DNA of 64,000 nt. Origin: Escherichia coli. GTDB lineage: Bacteria; Pseudomonadota; Gammaproteobacteria; Enterobacterales; Enterobacteriaceae. The stretch is taken from the NCBI RefSeq assembly GCF_003790525.1, contig NZ_CP033635.1. One strand, written 5' to 3'. Below, in pieces: positions 47,981 to 53,603 of this stretch; positions within the stretch are counted from its first letter, which is position 1, and each line of letters opens with the position of its first letter. A program made the translations under genes and the position numbers. The notes beneath the pieces are model-generated. The model was not told the DNA's origin and made no database searches. It was given only the letters and a program-made list of their open reading frames with translations.

Positions 47981-48764
<784 letters not shown>

Positions 48765-48897: not shown

Positions 48898-51800
48898 TTA
48901 CTCAACAGGTTGCGGACGCGCAGGAGCGGCAGAGGCATGATGCGTTGCCGTATGACCTCCTGCGGCACCTTTGCCTTCGAAGGCAAAAGTAGGGCGCTGC
49001 CAGTCACTGTGACGCGGTGCCTCCGGAACATATTCCGGTGCCGGAGCGCGCGTCATTGGCGCGGTAGCGTGGTTATGCTCAACGGTGATCTCTGGTTCAA
49101 CCGCGGCTACCGTTTCAACTTCTGCTGCGACTGGTGCGGCAGGTTGAGCAACAACTTCAGGTTCAGCAACCACAACCTCAGCAGTTTCGGCAACTTCTTC
49201 AATATCAGCCGTCTCTTCCTGCGGTTCAACTACCGGTTCTGCGTGTTCTGCAACTTCCTGGGCTACGGCAACATCAGACTCGGTAATCACCTGCGGCTGT
49301 TCAGTTACCGCGGCGGCAATTACTTCAGGATGCGTCGTTTCAACCACTTCCGGTTGCGGTTCGGCAACGTGAACGGGGGCTTCTACGACTTCAGCCACTT
49401 CTTCAACAACCGGTGCGCTAACAACCGGTTCGACAGCGGCGGCGACAGGGACCTCAGTCACCATCGGCTGCACTTGTACTTCTTCCTGTTCGCGCTGCTC
49501 TTCAACCTGTACATCTTGTGGACGTACAATCGGATAGCGGATCCAGACTTTGCCAGAGGCCAGTTCCGGAGACGCGCACGCTACGGTCAACGGCATTGGC
49601 GATTGGGTTGGATAACGCTCGTCACGATAGCGACGACGACGCTGACCACTCACGCGCAGGTGACGAGGCGAGCGGCGAGAACGACGCGGCATGCCACCGT
49701 TGTCACGGTTATCGGCATTGTTCTCTTCTTGCTGTTCTGGTGCAGCTTGCGCTACGACTGGCAGCGGGACTTTCACCAGTTCTGTGCGTGGAGCTGGCGC
49801 TTCCTGAACAATTGGTTCGCCAGCGACAGTTTCTTCAACCACCGGTGCGACTACCGCTTCTTCGGCTACGCTTTGCTCGTAACGCACTTTCTGATTGAGC
49901 TGACGCTGTTTACGACGCGGCTGAACCGGACGTACACGTTCTTCCTGTTCGGTTTCCTGAACAGATTGCTCTTCAACATTCAGCGCCTTCGCTTCTTGTT
50001 GCGCCTGACGTTTATCATCGTTACGGCGGCGGCTACGTTCACGACGCGGCGCTTGCTGCTCGTCGGTGGTACGCGCTTTTTCCGTTACCTCAGCCTGCTG
50101 ACGGCTCTCACGCGTCTCGACAGTCTGCTGCTGTGCCTGGCGACGATTACGACGGTTTTCTTCGCGATTATCGCTGCCTTCTGTACGTTCACTACGGGAG
50201 TCGCGGCGCTCATTACGGTCACGGCGGTTGTTCTGACGAGGCTTGCGACGATCCTGTTGACGTTCCGGTTTCGCTTCTGCTTTCGGTGCTGGTTGCTCGG
50301 CCGGTTTGGTTTCTTCACCACCGCTGAACAGCGCTTTCAGTGCGCCGAAGAAGCGGCTCAACAACCCTGGTTGTGCAGGAGATGCTGGTGTTGCCGTTGC
50401 AGCTTTAGGTGCTGGGGCTACAACAGGCGCGGCAGGTTCAGCTGGGGTTGGCGCTGGCGGCACATCCGGCATGGCAAAGGTTGCCAGCGCAGGTTGTTCC
50501 GGACGCTTACGTTCAGCGAACTCTTCTTCAGACGGCAGCGCCATCGCTTCTTCATGCAGCTTCGGCAGCATGTAGCTTAAGGTTGGAGTTTCTTCCCCTT
50601 TACGCACGCGCAGCACATGGTAGTGCGGGGTTTCCATCTGATCGTTTGGCACAATCACACAGCGCACGCCGTCCTGACGAGTTTCAATCGCATTCACTGC
50701 AGAACGTTTTTCATTCAGCAGGTAAGACGCGATTGGCACAGGAACAATGGCGTGAACTTCCTGAGTGTTCTCTTTCAGCGCTTCTTCTTCGATCAGACGC
50801 AGAATAGAGAGCGACAACGATTCGTTGTCACGCACGGTACCAGTACCGGAGCAGCGCGGGCAGACGTGATGGCTGGATTCACCCAGTGATGGGCTCAGAC
50901 GCTGACGGGACATTTCCAGCAGGCCAAAGCGAGAAATATGGCTGATTTGAATACGCGCACGGTCCTGACGCACCGCTTCACGCAGACGATTTTCTACCGC
51001 ACGCTGGTGGCGTACAGGCGTCATGTCGATGAAGTCGATAACAATCAGGCCGCCGAGGTCACGCAGGCGCAGCTGACGAGCAATCTCATCGGCAGCTTCG
51101 AGGTTAGTGTTAAACGCGGTTTCTTCGATATCGCCGCCGCGGGTCGCGCGTGCGGAGTTGATGTCGATGGCCGTTAACGCTTCGGTGCTGTCGATAACAA
51201 TCGAACCACCGGATGGCAGACGAACTTCACGCTGGAAGGCGGACTCGATCTGCGACTCGATCTGGTAGTGGCTGAACAGCGGGATCTCGCCGGTGTACAG
51301 TTTGATTTTGCTGCTGAAATCCGGGCGGCCTAATGCAGCGATATGCTGACGTGCCAGTTCGAGCACTTTCGGGTTATCGATAAGGATTTCACCGATGTCC
51401 TGGCGTAAGTAATCGCGGAATGCGCGAACGATTACGTTGCTCTCCTGATGAATCAGGAACGGAGCCGGGCGGCTTTCAGCGGCTTTTTTGATGGCTTCCC
51501 AGTGTTTCAGACGGAAGCTTAAATCCCATTGCAGCGCCTCAGCAGATTTGCCGACGCCAGCGGTGCGCACGATAAGCCCCATGCCTTCCGGCAGTTCAAG
51601 GCTTGCCAGTGCTTCTTTTAATTCGGTACGGTCGTCGCCTTCGATACGACGAGAAATGCCACCCGCGCGCGGGTTGTTCGGCATCAGAACCAGATAGCTA
51701 CCCGCCAGACTGATAAAGGTGGTTAATGCCGCGCCTTTGTTGCCGCGCTCTTCTTTATCGATCTGAACAATGACTTCCTGACCTTCACGCAACACATCTT

Positions 51801-52071
51801 TAATGTTGGGACGACCATGAGCACTGTAGTTAGCAGGGAAATATTCGCGGGCAATTTCTTTTAGTGGGAGGAAACCGTGACGTTCAGCGCCGTAATCAAC
51901 AAAAGCAGCTTCCAGACTCGGTTCAATGCGGGTGATTTTACCTTTGTAGATGTTTGCCTTTTTCTGCTCGTGCCCTGGACTTTCGATATCCAGGTCATAC
52001 AGACGCTGCCCATCTACAAGGGCAACGCGCAACTCTTCCTGCTGAGTTGCGTTGATTAACATTCTTTTCAT
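48898..52071 (-). CDS. rne: ribonuclease E
   Basis: 1057-aa ORF; N-terminal [32 protein letters not shown]1/catalytic domain; Arg-rich and acidic low-complexity C-terminal scaffold half. Confidence 0.95.
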
Positions 52072-52432
52072 CGTAACTTACTCATTATTCTTACATTGAC
52101 GACTAAGCTGCGGGCAAAGTAACGCCTTTCCGGGTGTGAACCGATGGCCTCGTGTCTAGTCGCGTCGCCAACCTCACGGTTATCGTCAGCTCAAAGAGGC
52201 GCAGAGTGTCGGTTGCCCGTTTTTCATGCGGAAAAACAGCGCAATTATCAAAGAAACAGACTGGGTATTACTCTCCAGAAATATTTCCATCTACCGGTAA
52301 GGACTGCAACCCGCAGCCCGCTAACTGCCTGAAAGATCAATACGTCTTACGCCATTGCTGCGTGGATGATCGGTCGGGCAAAATGGGTTATTCCGTAAAA
52401 TTTCTTGTTTTAACAAGGATGGACACGGAAAC
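52072..52432 (-). promoter_or_regulatory. rne 5' untranslated leader (autoregulatory) and promoter region
   Basis: long non-coding region upstream of rne start; extent assigned from established knowledge of the roughly 360-nt rne leader, not resolved from sequence. Confidence 0.55.
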
Positions 52433-52526
52433 GGCCTCATTATTCCACTGCAAGCCTTGTTATAGCAAGATGACTTTTACCATTTATCACCCGCTTACTC
52501 ACAGTTTTTTCACTTCTTGCTGGTGA
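52206..52526 (+). CDS. yceQ: questionable ORF opposite the rne leader (yceQ-like)
   Basis: ORF on + strand overlapping rne leader/promoter; no recognisable domain; weak call. Confidence 0.25.
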
Positions 52527-52643
52527 TTGGTTTAATAACCATCAATAAAGTGATCACGTAGTGAAGTAATAAGGTGCAAAACTAAATATAAGCATAGAAA
52601 AATGAGTGGCGCGAATCCTGTTGGCTAATTAGAATCGCCCACC

Positions 52644-53603
52644 ATGAAAACAGAGACTCCATCCGTAAAAATTGTTGCTATCACCGCTGACGAAGCGGGG
52701 CAACGTATCGATAACTTTTTGCGTACCCAATTGAAAGGTGTACCAAAAAGTATGATTTACCGTATTTTGCGTAAAGGCGAAGTGCGGGTGAACAAAAAAC
52801 GTATTAAGCCTGAATATAAACTCGAAGCGGGTGATGAGGTACGTATCCCACCGGTTCGCGTTGCTGAACGGGAAGAAGAGGCGGTTTCGCCACATCTGCA
52901 AAAGGTGGCAGCGCTGGCGGACGTCATCTTATATGAAGATGACCATATCCTGGTGCTGAATAAACCTTCCGGTACGGCGGTACATGGCGGCAGTGGTTTA
53001 AGCTTCGGCGTTATCGAAGGTTTGCGGGCGTTGCGCCCGGAAGCGCGGTTCCTTGAACTGGTTCATCGTCTCGACCGGGACACTTCAGGTGTGTTGCTGG
53101 TAGCGAAAAAACGCTCGGCGTTGCGTTCTCTGCATGAGCAATTACGTGAAAAAGGGATGCAAAAAGATTACCTGGCGCTGGTGCGCGGTCAGTGGCAGTC
53201 GCATGTGAAGAGCGTTCAAGCGCCGTTATTGAAAAATATTTTGCAAAGCGGCGAACGTATCGTGCGTGTCAGTCAGGAAGGCAAACCGTCGGAAACACGC
53301 TTTAAAGTGGAAGAACGCTATGCATTTGCCACCCTGGTGCGTTGTAGCCCGGTAACAGGGCGTACTCATCAGATCCGTGTGCATACACAATATGCGGGTC
53401 ATCCGATTGCCTTTGACGATCGCTACGGTGACCGTGAATTTGACAGACACCTCACTGAAGCAGGCACGGGATTAAATCGCCTGTTCCTGCACGCCGCAGC
53501 GTTGAAGTTTACTCATCCGGGGACCGGTGAGGTGATGCGTATTGAAGCGCCGATGGATGAAGGTTTGAAGCGTTGTTTGCAAAAGCTGCGTAACGCGCGC
53601 TAA
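52644..53603 (+). CDS. rluC: 23S rRNA pseudouridine synthase RluC
   Basis: 319-aa ORF; S4 domain plus RluA-family catalytic motif (HRLDRDTSGVLLVAK). Confidence 0.93.
   Translation: MKTETPSVKIVAITADEAGQRIDNFLRTQLKGVPKSMIYRILRKGEVRVNKKRIKPEYKLEAGDEVRIPPVRVAEREEEAVSPHLQKVAALADVILYEDDHILVLNKPSGTAVHGGSGLSFGVIEGLRALRPEARFLELVHRLDRDTSGVLLVAKKRSALRSLHEQLREKGMQKDYLALVRGQWQSHVKSVQAPLLKNILQSGERIVRVSQEGKPSETRFKVEERYAFATLVRCSPVTGRTHQIRVHTQYAGHPIAFDDRYGDREFDRHLTEAGTGLNRLFLHAAALKFTHPGTGEVMRIEAPMDEGLKRCLQKLRNAR

What the first reader, a model, noticed from the sequence alone, without database searches (positions are those of the whole stretch)
52072..52526. Long rne leader with an overlapping opposite-strand ORF of doubtful reality
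About 570 bp separates rne from rluC. Established knowledge places the long autoregulated rne 5' UTR and multiple promoters here. The + strand ORF (yceQ-like, 52206-52526, or the longer 124-aa frame from 52152) overlaps this leader, has no recognisable domain and may be an annotation artefact rather than a gene.
Basis: partly seen in the sequence, partly recalled or inferred. Interest (0 to 1): 0.2.

Follow-up and report, generated by a model that had tools for sequence, protein, structure and literature searches.

The report
rne leader; yceQ is spurious
The 572-bp gap between the E. coli genes rne and rluC holds the long structured leader RNA and promoters that control RNase E, and the opposite-strand "yceQ" reading frame shows no sign of encoding a protein; both points are already published, so the finding is correct but ordinary.

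Summary
It is already in the literature.

**What is there**
- The window is E. coli. rne lies at 48898-52071 (-) and rluC at 52644-53603 (+), with a 572-bp gap.
- The minus strand of the gap carries a full-length Rfam rne5 match (52096-52432, 260 bits, E 4e-82).
- The rne P1 promoter sits at 52439-52468, with its start site at about 52432.
- A published DnaA double box lies at 52483-52504.
- The -10 box of rne P3 lies at 52585-52592.

**The ORF**
- The + strand ORF at 52206-52526 is identical to K-12 yceQ (b1085).
- Across 106 Enterobacterales loci the frame is free of stops only in Escherichia.
- pN/pS is 0.36-1.46, against 0.05 or less for rne and rluC. Its "synonymous" sites are 2.5-28 times more conserved than those of the neighbours.
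- Third-position excess is 1.3-fold, against 9-19-fold in the neighbours.
- Codon usage looks like that of shadow ORFs.
- Pfam and NCBIfam give no match.
- The leader structure shows strong covariation: 89% of cells paired against 32-44% when the partners are slid, and 46 of 84 pairs carry compensatory changes.

Published ribosome profiling, TraDIS and CRISPRi studies already concluded that yceQ is not a gene and that its apparent essentiality reflects the rne promoter.

The parts
48898..52071 (-). rne coding sequence (RNase E, 1057 aa)
   Evidence: ORF list. Its first 200 aa are 100% identical to K-12 rne.
52072..52432 (-). rne 5' untranslated leader transcribed from P1 (361 nt), the cis element for RNase E autoregulation
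   Evidence: Rfam RF00040 rne5 matches 52096-52432, 260.1 bits against a gathering score of 180, E 3.9e-82, model positions 1-333 of 333. Covariation on 96 Enterobacterales sequences: 89.2% of cells paired, 46 of 84 pairs with changes on both sides, 0 of 500 shuffles as high. The 361-nt length and the feedback role are from the literature.
52391..52430 (-). hp1, the 5'-terminal stem-loop of the leader (RNA nt 3-42)
   Evidence: Rfam consensus structure projected onto the window. These are helices 1-2. They are the weakest helices, at 82% and 66% paired.
52325..52381 (-). hp2, the conserved stem-loop reported as the RNase E sensor (RNA nt 52-108)
   Evidence: Helices 3-6 (89-100% paired, with compensatory changes in helices 3 and 4). 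The sensor role is from Diwa 2000 and Schuck 2009, as cited. The invariant apical 17-mer was my search pattern, so its invariance in this sample is by construction.
52105..52319 (-). hp3, the large branched domain of the leader (RNA nt 114-328)
   Evidence: Helices 7-14. Six of the eight are 87-100% paired; helices 9 and 10 are 62% and 72%. The closing 11-bp helix is 98% paired. The minimum-free-energy fold reproduces the overall architecture.
52072..52104 (-). Single-stranded 3' segment of the leader with the rne ribosome-binding region
   Evidence: Unpaired in the Rfam consensus. Almost invariant in 47 Enterobacteriaceae.
52439..52468 (-). rne promoter P1: -35 TTGCTA, 18-nt spacer, TG-extended -10 AATAAT; start site about 52432
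   Evidence: This is the only promoter-like site found in 51900-52800. Both hexamers are conserved across Enterobacterales. The distance to the ATG matches the published 361-nt UTR.
52483..52504 (.). Double DnaA box TTTATCACCCgcTTACTCACAG, at -51 to -72 from the P1 start, inside the 3' part of the yceQ frame
   Evidence: The sequence is identical to the ChIP-seq-defined site '(yceQ) rne' at K-12 1144772 (PMC11317965). It is read directly in the window and is conserved in Enterobacteriaceae. The motif alone is not above chance in the window.
52585..52592 (-). -10 box (CTTATATT) of the upstream rne promoter P3; start site about 52581, so this transcript is antisense to the whole yceQ frame
   Evidence: Mendoza-Vargas 2009 supplement: an rne start site at -510 with -10 box tatgCTTATATTtact, assigned to rnep3. 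It lies within a block conserved across Enterobacterales, 52586-52612.
52206..52526 (+). yceQ reading frame (106 codons; longer 124-codon form from 52152). Judged a chance ORF and a legacy annotation, not a gene.
   Evidence: Identical to K-12 b1085. Not annotated in any PGAP-annotated RefSeq genome sampled. It fails the conservation, dN/dS, periodicity, codon-usage and family tests.
52644..53603 (+). rluC coding sequence (23S rRNA pseudouridine synthase), divergent neighbour
   Evidence: ORF list. K-12 annotation.

Best explanation
The interval is the regulatory region of rne, read from the minus strand.

Shown here:
- The leader RNA is present and complete.
- Its secondary structure is maintained by compensatory evolution across Enterobacterales.
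- A P1-type sigma-70 promoter sits at its 5' end.
- The conserved DNA under the 3' part of the plus-strand ORF coincides with P1 and with the published double DnaA box.

From the literature:
- rne is transcribed from P1 (start about 52432) and from at least one upstream promoter, P3 (start about 52581).
- The 361-nt leader folds into hp1, hp2 and hp3.
- RNase E senses the leader through hp2 and speeds decay of its own mRNA, which keeps the enzyme level constant.

Inferred:
The plus-strand frame called yceQ is a by-product of this region. The sequence is held nearly constant by RNA-structure and promoter constraints. In the Escherichia lineage alone it happens to lack stop codons in one frame. 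Part of the reason is that codon 83 is AAG in Escherichia, where relatives such as Citrobacter carry a stop; that codon lies inside the P1 spacer. The Shine-Dalgarno-like AAGAGG 6 nt upstream of the GTG start overlaps the complement of the 5' arm of a covarying leader helix.

The frame is not translated and has no function of its own. Its reported essentiality arises because deleting it removes P1 and the leader of an essential gene.
For: Leader and promoters:
- Full-length rne5 match, 260 bits.
- Covariation: 89.2% of cells paired against 32-44% with slid partners, 46 of 84 pairs with double changes, 0 of 500 shuffles as high.
- Pairing is slightly better on the rne-sense strand, 89.2% against 84.1%, with 8.8% G-U cells.
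- P1 consensus site.
- rnep3 start site at -510.
- DnaA ChIP-seq site with identical sequence.
- The conservation profile follows these elements, not the ORF boundaries.

ORF not coding:
- It is free of stops only in the 5 Escherichia sequences of 106 loci. Every other species has at least one stop or frameshift. The longest + strand ORFs fall in different frames and positions in different genera.
- pN/pS is 0.36-1.46, against 0.00-0.05 in rluC and rne.
- pS is 0.015-0.154, against 0.11-0.64 in the neighbours.
- Variability at codon positions 1/2/3 is 0.119/0.096/0.143, against 0.019/0.006/0.238 (rne) and 0.052/0.023/0.324 (rluC).
- Codon-usage log-odds is -0.11 per codon. Shadow ORFs give -0.04 +/- 0.12. 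Real genes give a mean of 0.31 and a minimum of 0.15.
- The predicted protein is 7.5% Cys.
- No Pfam or NCBIfam match.
- Only 30 clusters among 5.8 billion proteins and 28 representatives among 1.84 billion. The named ones are all from Enterobacteriaceae, with lengths of 21-156 aa apart from three long repeat proteins, and mostly partial coverage.
- E. coli and Shigella variants exist with frameshifts or a lost stop codon.
- No feature is annotated here in any of the PGAP-annotated genomes sampled.

Literature:
- No ribosome-profiling reads in three conditions; the ORF is disrupted in some strains; transposon insertions are tolerated only in the orientation that can drive rne.
- TraDIS gives the same result.
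- CRISPRi is effective only on the strand that blocks rne transcription.
Against: - A stop-free run of 128 codons is somewhat longer than shuffles of this one region give (P about 0.02).
- There is a weak excess of variation at the third codon position (ratio 1.34, permutation p 0.024 before correcting for three phases).
- A Shine-Dalgarno-like AAGAGG lies 6 nt upstream of the GTG.
- The minimum-free-energy value of the leader alone is not exceptional (z = -0.66), so the case for structure rests on covariation and the Rfam model.
- The loci were collected with an exact 17-mer from hp2, so the sample is biased towards species that keep that loop.
- I could not examine expression data myself. 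Absence of translation rests on one published analysis of ribosome profiling.
Confidence: 0.93

Rival explanations
1. yceQ is a real but very young (de novo) Escherichia-specific small protein. It would have arisen on the antisense strand of the rne leader and would be expressed only in conditions not yet sampled.
For: - The frame is open in all five Escherichia sequences examined, including E. albertii, and the DNA is at least 99% identical in 5413 of 5425 E. coli genomes.
- A Shine-Dalgarno-like motif lies 6 nt upstream of the GTG.
- The ORF is longer than 97-98% of shuffles of the region.
- There is weak third-position excess.
Against: - The openness of the frame within Escherichia is explained by near-invariance of the DNA. 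Only 4-8 substitutions separate the species, with pS 0.015-0.044 against 0.29-0.42 in rluC, so there has been little opportunity to break it.
- There is no excess of synonymous over non-synonymous change.
- Codon usage resembles shadow ORFs.
- No promoter-like site is found on the + strand.
- No ribosome-profiling reads are reported.
- E. coli and Shigella variants carry frameshifts, and an O121 clinical isolate has ISEc11 inserted in codon 101.
Confidence: 0.03
2. The plus strand is transcribed into a non-coding antisense RNA that pairs with the rne leader and modulates rne expression. The region would then be functional on both strands without yceQ being translated.
For: An RNA-seq-based tool lists rne-yceQ among 16 'divergent excludons' of E. 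coli MG1655, meaning overlapping transcription was called in at least half of 58 transcriptomes. Pervasive antisense transcription is common in E. coli (general knowledge).
Against: - That call follows automatically from the rne 5' UTR running across an annotated opposite-strand gene. The passages I read do not show plus-strand transcripts starting inside the leader.
- No plus-strand promoter-like site was found in 51900-52800.
- Conservation is accounted for by the minus-strand structure and promoters.
- Transposon and CRISPRi data are explained by polarity on rne alone.
Confidence: 0.04

Closest known systems
Rfam RF00040 (rne5), the RNase E 5' UTR autoregulatory element of Enterobacterales
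   Same: Full-length match above the gathering score, directly upstream of rne on the same strand, with the same hp1, hp2 and hp3 architecture and the same conserved hp2 loop. The window sequence is identical to E. coli K-12 over the whole leader.
   Different: Nothing. It is the E. coli element itself.
E. coli K-12 yceQ (b1085, NP_415603.2, 'DUF2655 domain-containing protein')
   Same: The 321-bp ORF is 100% identical at the DNA level and lies at the same position between rne and rluC.
   Different: The label is an annotation, not a demonstrated protein. No Pfam-A or NCBIfam model in the copies held here matches it. PGAP does not call it in the other RefSeq E. coli genomes sampled.
Other 'essential' Keio artefacts caused by polarity on an adjacent essential gene, such as rnc upstream of era, or psrO in the pnp promoter region
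   Same: Apparent essentiality or a strand-specific CRISPRi effect that stems from disrupting expression of a neighbouring essential gene.
   Different: rnc and psrO are real genes. For yceQ the annotated gene itself appears to be spurious.

Membership tests
Rfam RF00040 rne5 | Covariance-model score at or above the curated gathering score, over the whole model | tested here: met
   260.1 bits against 180; model positions 1-333 of 333; E 3.9e-82.
Rfam RF00040 rne5 | Located immediately 5' of the rne coding sequence, on the rne strand | tested here: met
   The match at 52096-52432 (-) ends 24 nt upstream of the rne ATG at 52071. The same arrangement is found in 106 Enterobacterales loci.
Rfam RF00040 rne5 | Secondary structure (hp1, hp2, hp3) maintained by compensatory substitutions | tested here: met
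   89.2% of cells paired against 32-44% with slid partners; 46 of 84 pairs with changes on both sides; 0 of 500 shuffles as high. Caveat: the structure was taken from the Rfam consensus through the window row, which favours the unslid register.
Rfam RF00040 rne5 | Mediates RNase E-dependent feedback on rne mRNA stability through hp2 | not testable with these tools
   Literature only: Jain & Belasco 1995, Diwa 2000 and Schuck 2009, as cited in PMC10989929.
Protein-coding gene (yceQ / 'DUF2655') | Reading frame kept open in orthologous loci of related species | tested here: not met
   The frame is open only in Escherichia (5 of 106 loci). All others have at least one stop or frameshift in the homologous segment. 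Several carry insertions of 106-130 nt.
Protein-coding gene (yceQ / 'DUF2655') | Purifying selection on the protein (dN/dS well below 1) | tested here: not met
   pN/pS is 0.36-1.46 for yceQ against 0.00-0.05 for rluC and rne in the same species pairs. The other two frames of the same DNA give similar ratios, 0.68-2.0.
Protein-coding gene (yceQ / 'DUF2655') | Three-base periodicity of substitutions (third position most variable) | tested here: not met
   The ratio of position 3 to positions 1 and 2 is 1.34, against about 19 (rne) and 8.6 (rluC). The permutation p of 0.024 is uncorrected for three phases.
Protein-coding gene (yceQ / 'DUF2655') | Codon usage like that of the host's genes | tested here: not met
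   -0.11 log-odds per codon. The 27 long genes of the window give a mean of 0.31 and a minimum of 0.15. The 26 shadow ORFs give -0.04 +/- 0.12.
Protein-coding gene (yceQ / 'DUF2655') | Match to a curated protein family model | tested here: not met
   0 families in Pfam-A (copy with models to 2025) and in NCBIfam release 20.0, at E values up to 1.
Protein-coding gene (yceQ / 'DUF2655') | Evidence of translation (ribosome footprints, peptides) | not testable with these tools
   Literature: no ribosome-profiling reads in minimal glucose or in two other conditions (10.1101/038851).
Protein-coding gene (yceQ / 'DUF2655') | Own promoter upstream on the + strand | tested here: inconclusive
   A consensus scan found no + strand sigma-70-like site in 51900-52800. 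Such a scan cannot exclude weak or alternative-sigma promoters.
Sigma-70 promoter (rne P1) | -35 and -10 hexamers with 16-18-nt spacing at the right distance from the mapped 5' end | tested here: met
   TTGCTA, 18 nt, TG-AATAAT, 9 of 12 matches. The -10 ends at 52439, 7 nt from the Rfam model start at 52432, which is 361 nt from the ATG. Both hexamers are conserved.
DnaA-bound regulatory site | Pair of closely spaced DnaA boxes, bound in vivo | tested here: inconclusive
   The sequence is identical to the published double box and is conserved in Enterobacteriaceae. Matches to the box with up to 2 mismatches occur at chance frequency in the window: 587 against 567 +/- 21. Binding rests on the published ChIP-seq, and a regulatory effect on rne has not been shown.

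The most novel reading that the evidence does not exclude
The yceQ frame is an Escherichia-specific de novo protein-coding gene, or the template of an antisense regulator, born on the opposite strand of the rne autoregulatory leader. It would be expressed only under conditions not covered by existing ribosome-profiling data, making the rne control region functional on both strands.
Probability: 0.04. Interest if true: 0.45.

Novelty: already known. Interest (0 to 1): 0.08.

Why it matters
It matters mainly as annotation hygiene. The legacy gene b1085 is still in the K-12 reference record, and it propagates into downstream analyses:
- It was scored as an essential gene in Keio and PEC.
- It makes a DnaA ChIP-seq peak in the rne promoter look intragenic.
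- It yields an 'rne-yceQ excludon' in an RNA-seq tool.

The comparative tests here add independent evolutionary evidence to the published expression and genetic evidence. The ORF is broken in every non-Escherichia genus sampled. Selection acts on the nucleotides, not on the protein, and strong covariation supports the opposite-strand RNA. There is no new biology.

Tried and rejected
- **Thermodynamic stability of the leader.** The minimum free energy is -103 kcal/mol and z = -0.66 against shuffles. This is not informative by itself, so I relied on covariation.
- **DnaA-box motif scan of the window.** With 2 mismatches it gave 587 hits against 567 expected. The motif alone says nothing, so the site rests on the published ChIP-seq.
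- **Long hits in the exhaustive HMMER search.** P0033 (1613 aa), P0035 and P0037 could have suggested a Cys-rich repeat family. P0033 has 12 identical copies of a 124-aa repeat, each giving a 22-bit match of 11/30 identities, so the summed score is an artefact. Pfam gives no meaningful family for any of the three: every hit has no matched stretch that passes on its own, including the single one (THUMP in P0037) whose summed score exceeds its cutoff.
- **Locating rne P2.** I tried Ow et al. 2002 and Diwa et al. 2000, but neither paper is held. Only P3 could be placed, through the Mendoza-Vargas supplement. The Thomason 2015 start-site data are not held either.
- **Structure prediction of YceQ.** Not run. 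With no real homologues, a low-confidence model would not discriminate between the readings.
- **Codon-wise stop counting on the large MAFFT alignment.** Insertion columns disturbed it: 17 'indel codons' were flagged even for the window row. I therefore used the naive in-frame translation of each homologous segment and the per-species ORF lists instead.

Full report
**Identity of the window.** The region is Escherichia coli. The 572-bp interval 52072-52643 is 100% identical to E. coli O157:H7 chromosomes. It is present in 5425 of 5426 complete E. coli genomes, at 99% identity or more in 5413 of them. It differs from K-12 MG1655 at three positions, all downstream of the ORF in question. rne occupies 48898-52071 on the minus strand and rluC occupies 52644-53603 on the plus strand.

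**Check of the observation.**
- The gap is 572 bp.
- The plus strand has a 124-codon ORF from a GTG at 52152 to the stop at 52524-52526.
- The 106-codon version from the GTG at 52206 is base-for-base the annotated K-12 gene yceQ, b1085.
- A stop-free run of 128 codons is longer than 97-98% of dinucleotide-preserving shuffles of this one region.
- The 64-kb window alone contains 114 ORFs of at least 100 aa, so length is not evidence of a gene.
- Neither ORF version matches any model in Pfam-A or NCBIfam. The 'DUF2655' name in the K-12 record has no counterpart in the library copies held here.
- None of the PGAP-annotated RefSeq genomes I sampled has any feature annotated under this interval, apart from inserted IS elements.

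**What is on the minus strand.**
- *Leader.* Rfam's covariance model for the RNase E 5' UTR element (RF00040) matches 52096-52432 over its full length, at 260 bits against a gathering score of 180.
- *Sub-elements.* Projecting the consensus structure onto the window gives hp1 at 52391-52430, hp2 at 52325-52381, hp3 at 52105-52319 and an unpaired ribosome-binding segment at 52072-52104.
- *P1.* The only sigma-70-like site in 51900-52800 is on the minus strand: -35 TTGCTA, 18 nt, TG-extended -10 AATAAT, at 52468-52439. It places the start at about 52432, 361 nt from the ATG. That is the published length of the P1 leader.
- *P3.* The supplement of Mendoza-Vargas et al. 2009 lists a further rne start site at -510 with the -10 box CTTATATT, assigned to rnep3. 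In the window this -10 is at 52585-52592 and the start is near 52581, so the P3 transcript is antisense to the entire yceQ frame.
- *DnaA site.* A 2024 ChIP-seq study reports a DnaA-bound double box, tTTATCACCCgcTTACTCACAg, at '(yceQ) rne'. That exact sequence is at 52483-52504, which is -51 to -72 from the P1 start.

**Comparative data.** Of these, 106 have rne and rluC divergently arranged with complete intergenic regions, most of them 552-600 bp long. Two caveats apply. The sample is conditioned on that 17-mer, so its invariance is by construction. Species that have lost it are not represented.

**Structure of the leader.** On a 96-sequence alignment (A2) I counted pairs for the Rfam consensus structure.
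- 89.2% of cells form standard pairs, against 32-44% when the 3' partners are slid by 1-3 columns.
- 46 of 84 pairs show changes on both sides.
- None of 500 column shuffles reaches any of the observed measures.
- Pairing is a little better on the rne-sense strand than on its complement, 89.2% against 84.1%, owing to G-U pairs.
- The single-sequence folding energy is not exceptional (z = -0.66), although the minimum-free-energy fold reproduces the three-domain architecture.

**Tests of the ORF.**
1. *Openness.* The homologous segment is free of in-frame stops only in the five Escherichia sequences: the window, K-12, two divergent E. coli-like genomes and E. albertii. Every other species has at least one stop or frameshift. 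The longest plus-strand ORFs in other genera lie in other frames and positions. Codon 83 (52452-52454, AAG in E. coli, inside the P1 spacer) is a stop in Citrobacter and many others, which gives the 82-aa products seen for Citrobacter and Salmonella.
2. *Selection.* Nei-Gojobori pN/pS for yceQ is 0.36-0.82 within Escherichia, from only 4-8 substitutions, and 0.74-1.46 against Citrobacter. For the first 200 codons of rluC and rne it is 0.00-0.05. The other two frames of the same DNA give 0.68-2.0. The 'synonymous' divergence of yceQ (0.015-0.154) is 2.5-28 times lower than that of the neighbours (0.11-0.64), while its non-synonymous divergence is 3-10 times higher wherever the neighbours' is measurable. 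The constraint is therefore on the nucleotides, not on the protein.
3. *Periodicity.* Among 47 Enterobacteriaceae, variability at codon positions 1/2/3 is 0.119/0.096/0.143. For rne it is 0.019/0.006/0.238 and for rluC 0.052/0.023/0.324. The ratio of 1.34 has an uncorrected permutation p of 0.024, which I treat as noise.
4. *Codon usage.* The log-odds is -0.11 per codon. That falls within the range of shadow ORFs and below every long gene of the window. The product would be 7.5% cysteine.
5. *Homologues.* The indexed search found 30 clusters among 5.8 billion proteins. The exhaustive HMMER search found 28 representatives among 1.84 billion. All that carry a name come from Enterobacteriaceae. 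They are 21-156 aa long and mostly cover part of the query, as expected if gene callers pick different chance frames on conserved DNA. The few long hits are tandem-repeat artefacts.
6. *Variants within E. coli and Shigella.* Some carry internal frameshifts or a lost stop codon. An O121 clinical isolate has ISEc11 inserted at 52507-52509, in codon 101.
7. *The Shine-Dalgarno-like motif.* The AAGAGG at 52194-52199, 6 nt upstream of the GTG, overlaps the complement (52196-52200) of the 5' arm of helix 13 of the leader. That helix is 100% paired, and three of its five pairs covary. The motif is explained by the RNA structure.

**Conservation profile.** The best-conserved stretches are the rne ribosome-binding segment, the helices of hp3 and hp2, the P1 hexamers, the DnaA-box region, and a block at 52586-52612 that contains the P3 -10. 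The least-conserved part inside the ORF (52252-52291) is the apical part of hp3. Conservation collapses at 52512-52585, which straddles the ORF's stop codon without regard to it.

**Literature.**
- Price et al. found no ribosome-profiling reads for YceQ in three conditions. They noted that the ORF is disrupted in some strains, and they recovered transposon insertions in it only in the orientation that can drive rne. They concluded that it does not encode a protein.
- Goodall et al. (TraDIS) and Rousset et al. (CRISPRi) reached the same explanation for its 'essential' status in Keio and PEC.
- The autoregulatory role of the 361-nt leader is long established.

**Verdict.** The finding is real and correctly interpreted, but already known. 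The interval is the rne control region: leader, P1, P3 and a DnaA site. yceQ is a chance antisense ORF retained as a legacy annotation. The remaining uncertainty, about 5-7%, is that the plus strand has some condition-specific coding or antisense function. Expression data that I could not examine would be needed to exclude that.

Noticed in passing
Insertion point after window 52290 (RNA nt 142/143 of the rne leader); loci L033 710-835, L054 2520-2644, L068 10137-10264, L042 4161-4288, L065 1564-1684, L072 141-263, L022 8632-8739, L099 1686-1741: In Citrobacter youngae, Citrobacter sp. Cu233, Pseudocitrobacter, Pluralibacter, Enterobacteriaceae RIT691 and two Kluyvera, a 108-128-nt imperfect palindrome sits at the same unpaired junction inside hp3 of the rne leader. 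Four of the five insertions folded give long hairpins of -24 to -57 kcal/mol. The fifth, an unrelated 123-nt insertion in Erwinia persicina at 52392, folds only partly (-34 kcal/mol). A pair of insertions lies at 52267-52269 in one MAG. Related copies occur elsewhere in two loci (L068 7046-7163, L020 10460-10573), so the element looks like an ERIC-type mobile repeat. Its effect on rne autoregulation is unknown.
   Followed up: partly
Window 52585-52593 (L122, E. coli ECSD228) and window 52507-52509 (L123, E. coli O121 201805972): Two complete E. coli genomes carry IS elements in this gap. An IS1 has a 9-bp target duplication that coincides with the -10 box of rne P3. An ISEc11 lies just upstream of the DnaA boxes, inside codon 101 of yceQ. 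Both leave P1 and the leader intact, which suggests P1 suffices for viability.
   Followed up: partly
Window 52586-52612: The block ATATAAGCATAGAAAAATGAGTGGCGCG is conserved across Enterobacterales about as strongly as the leader helices. It is longer than the P3 -10 box it contains. It may also hold the rluC promoter or another binding site. It includes an 8-codon mini-ORF, ATG at 52602 to TAA at 52626-52628, whose downstream part is not conserved.
   Followed up: partly
Window 47981-48764 (-): A toxin-antitoxin-like pair lies directly downstream of rne: a TacA-type antitoxin (PF08681, E 3e-22) followed by a GNAT acetyltransferase (PF13508, E 5e-9). K-12 has only the small RNA gene flgO in the 195-bp flgL-rne gap, so this is an insertion relative to K-12.
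   Followed up: partly
K-12 record NC_000913.3 1144502-1144822 (homologue of window 52206-52526): The product name 'DUF2655 domain-containing protein YceQ' has no matching model in the Pfam-A or NCBIfam copies searched. The annotation still affects later work: a DnaA ChIP-seq peak is labelled intragenic, and 'rne-yceQ' is listed as a divergent excludon.
   Followed up: yes
Protein P0033 (1613 aa, from the exhaustive protein search): A predicted protein made of 12 identical 124-aa tandem repeats weakly matches residues 35-64 of the yceQ translation, the stretch opposite hp2. It is probably a translated tandem DNA repeat or an assembly artefact. Its origin was not examined.
   Followed up: no
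Window 52206-52523, yceQ frame, in 47 Enterobacteriaceae: There is a slight excess of variable sites at the third position of the yceQ frame (0.143 against 0.119 and 0.096; permutation p 0.024, uncorrected). It is far below real genes and is probably chance, but it is not positively explained.
   Followed up: partly
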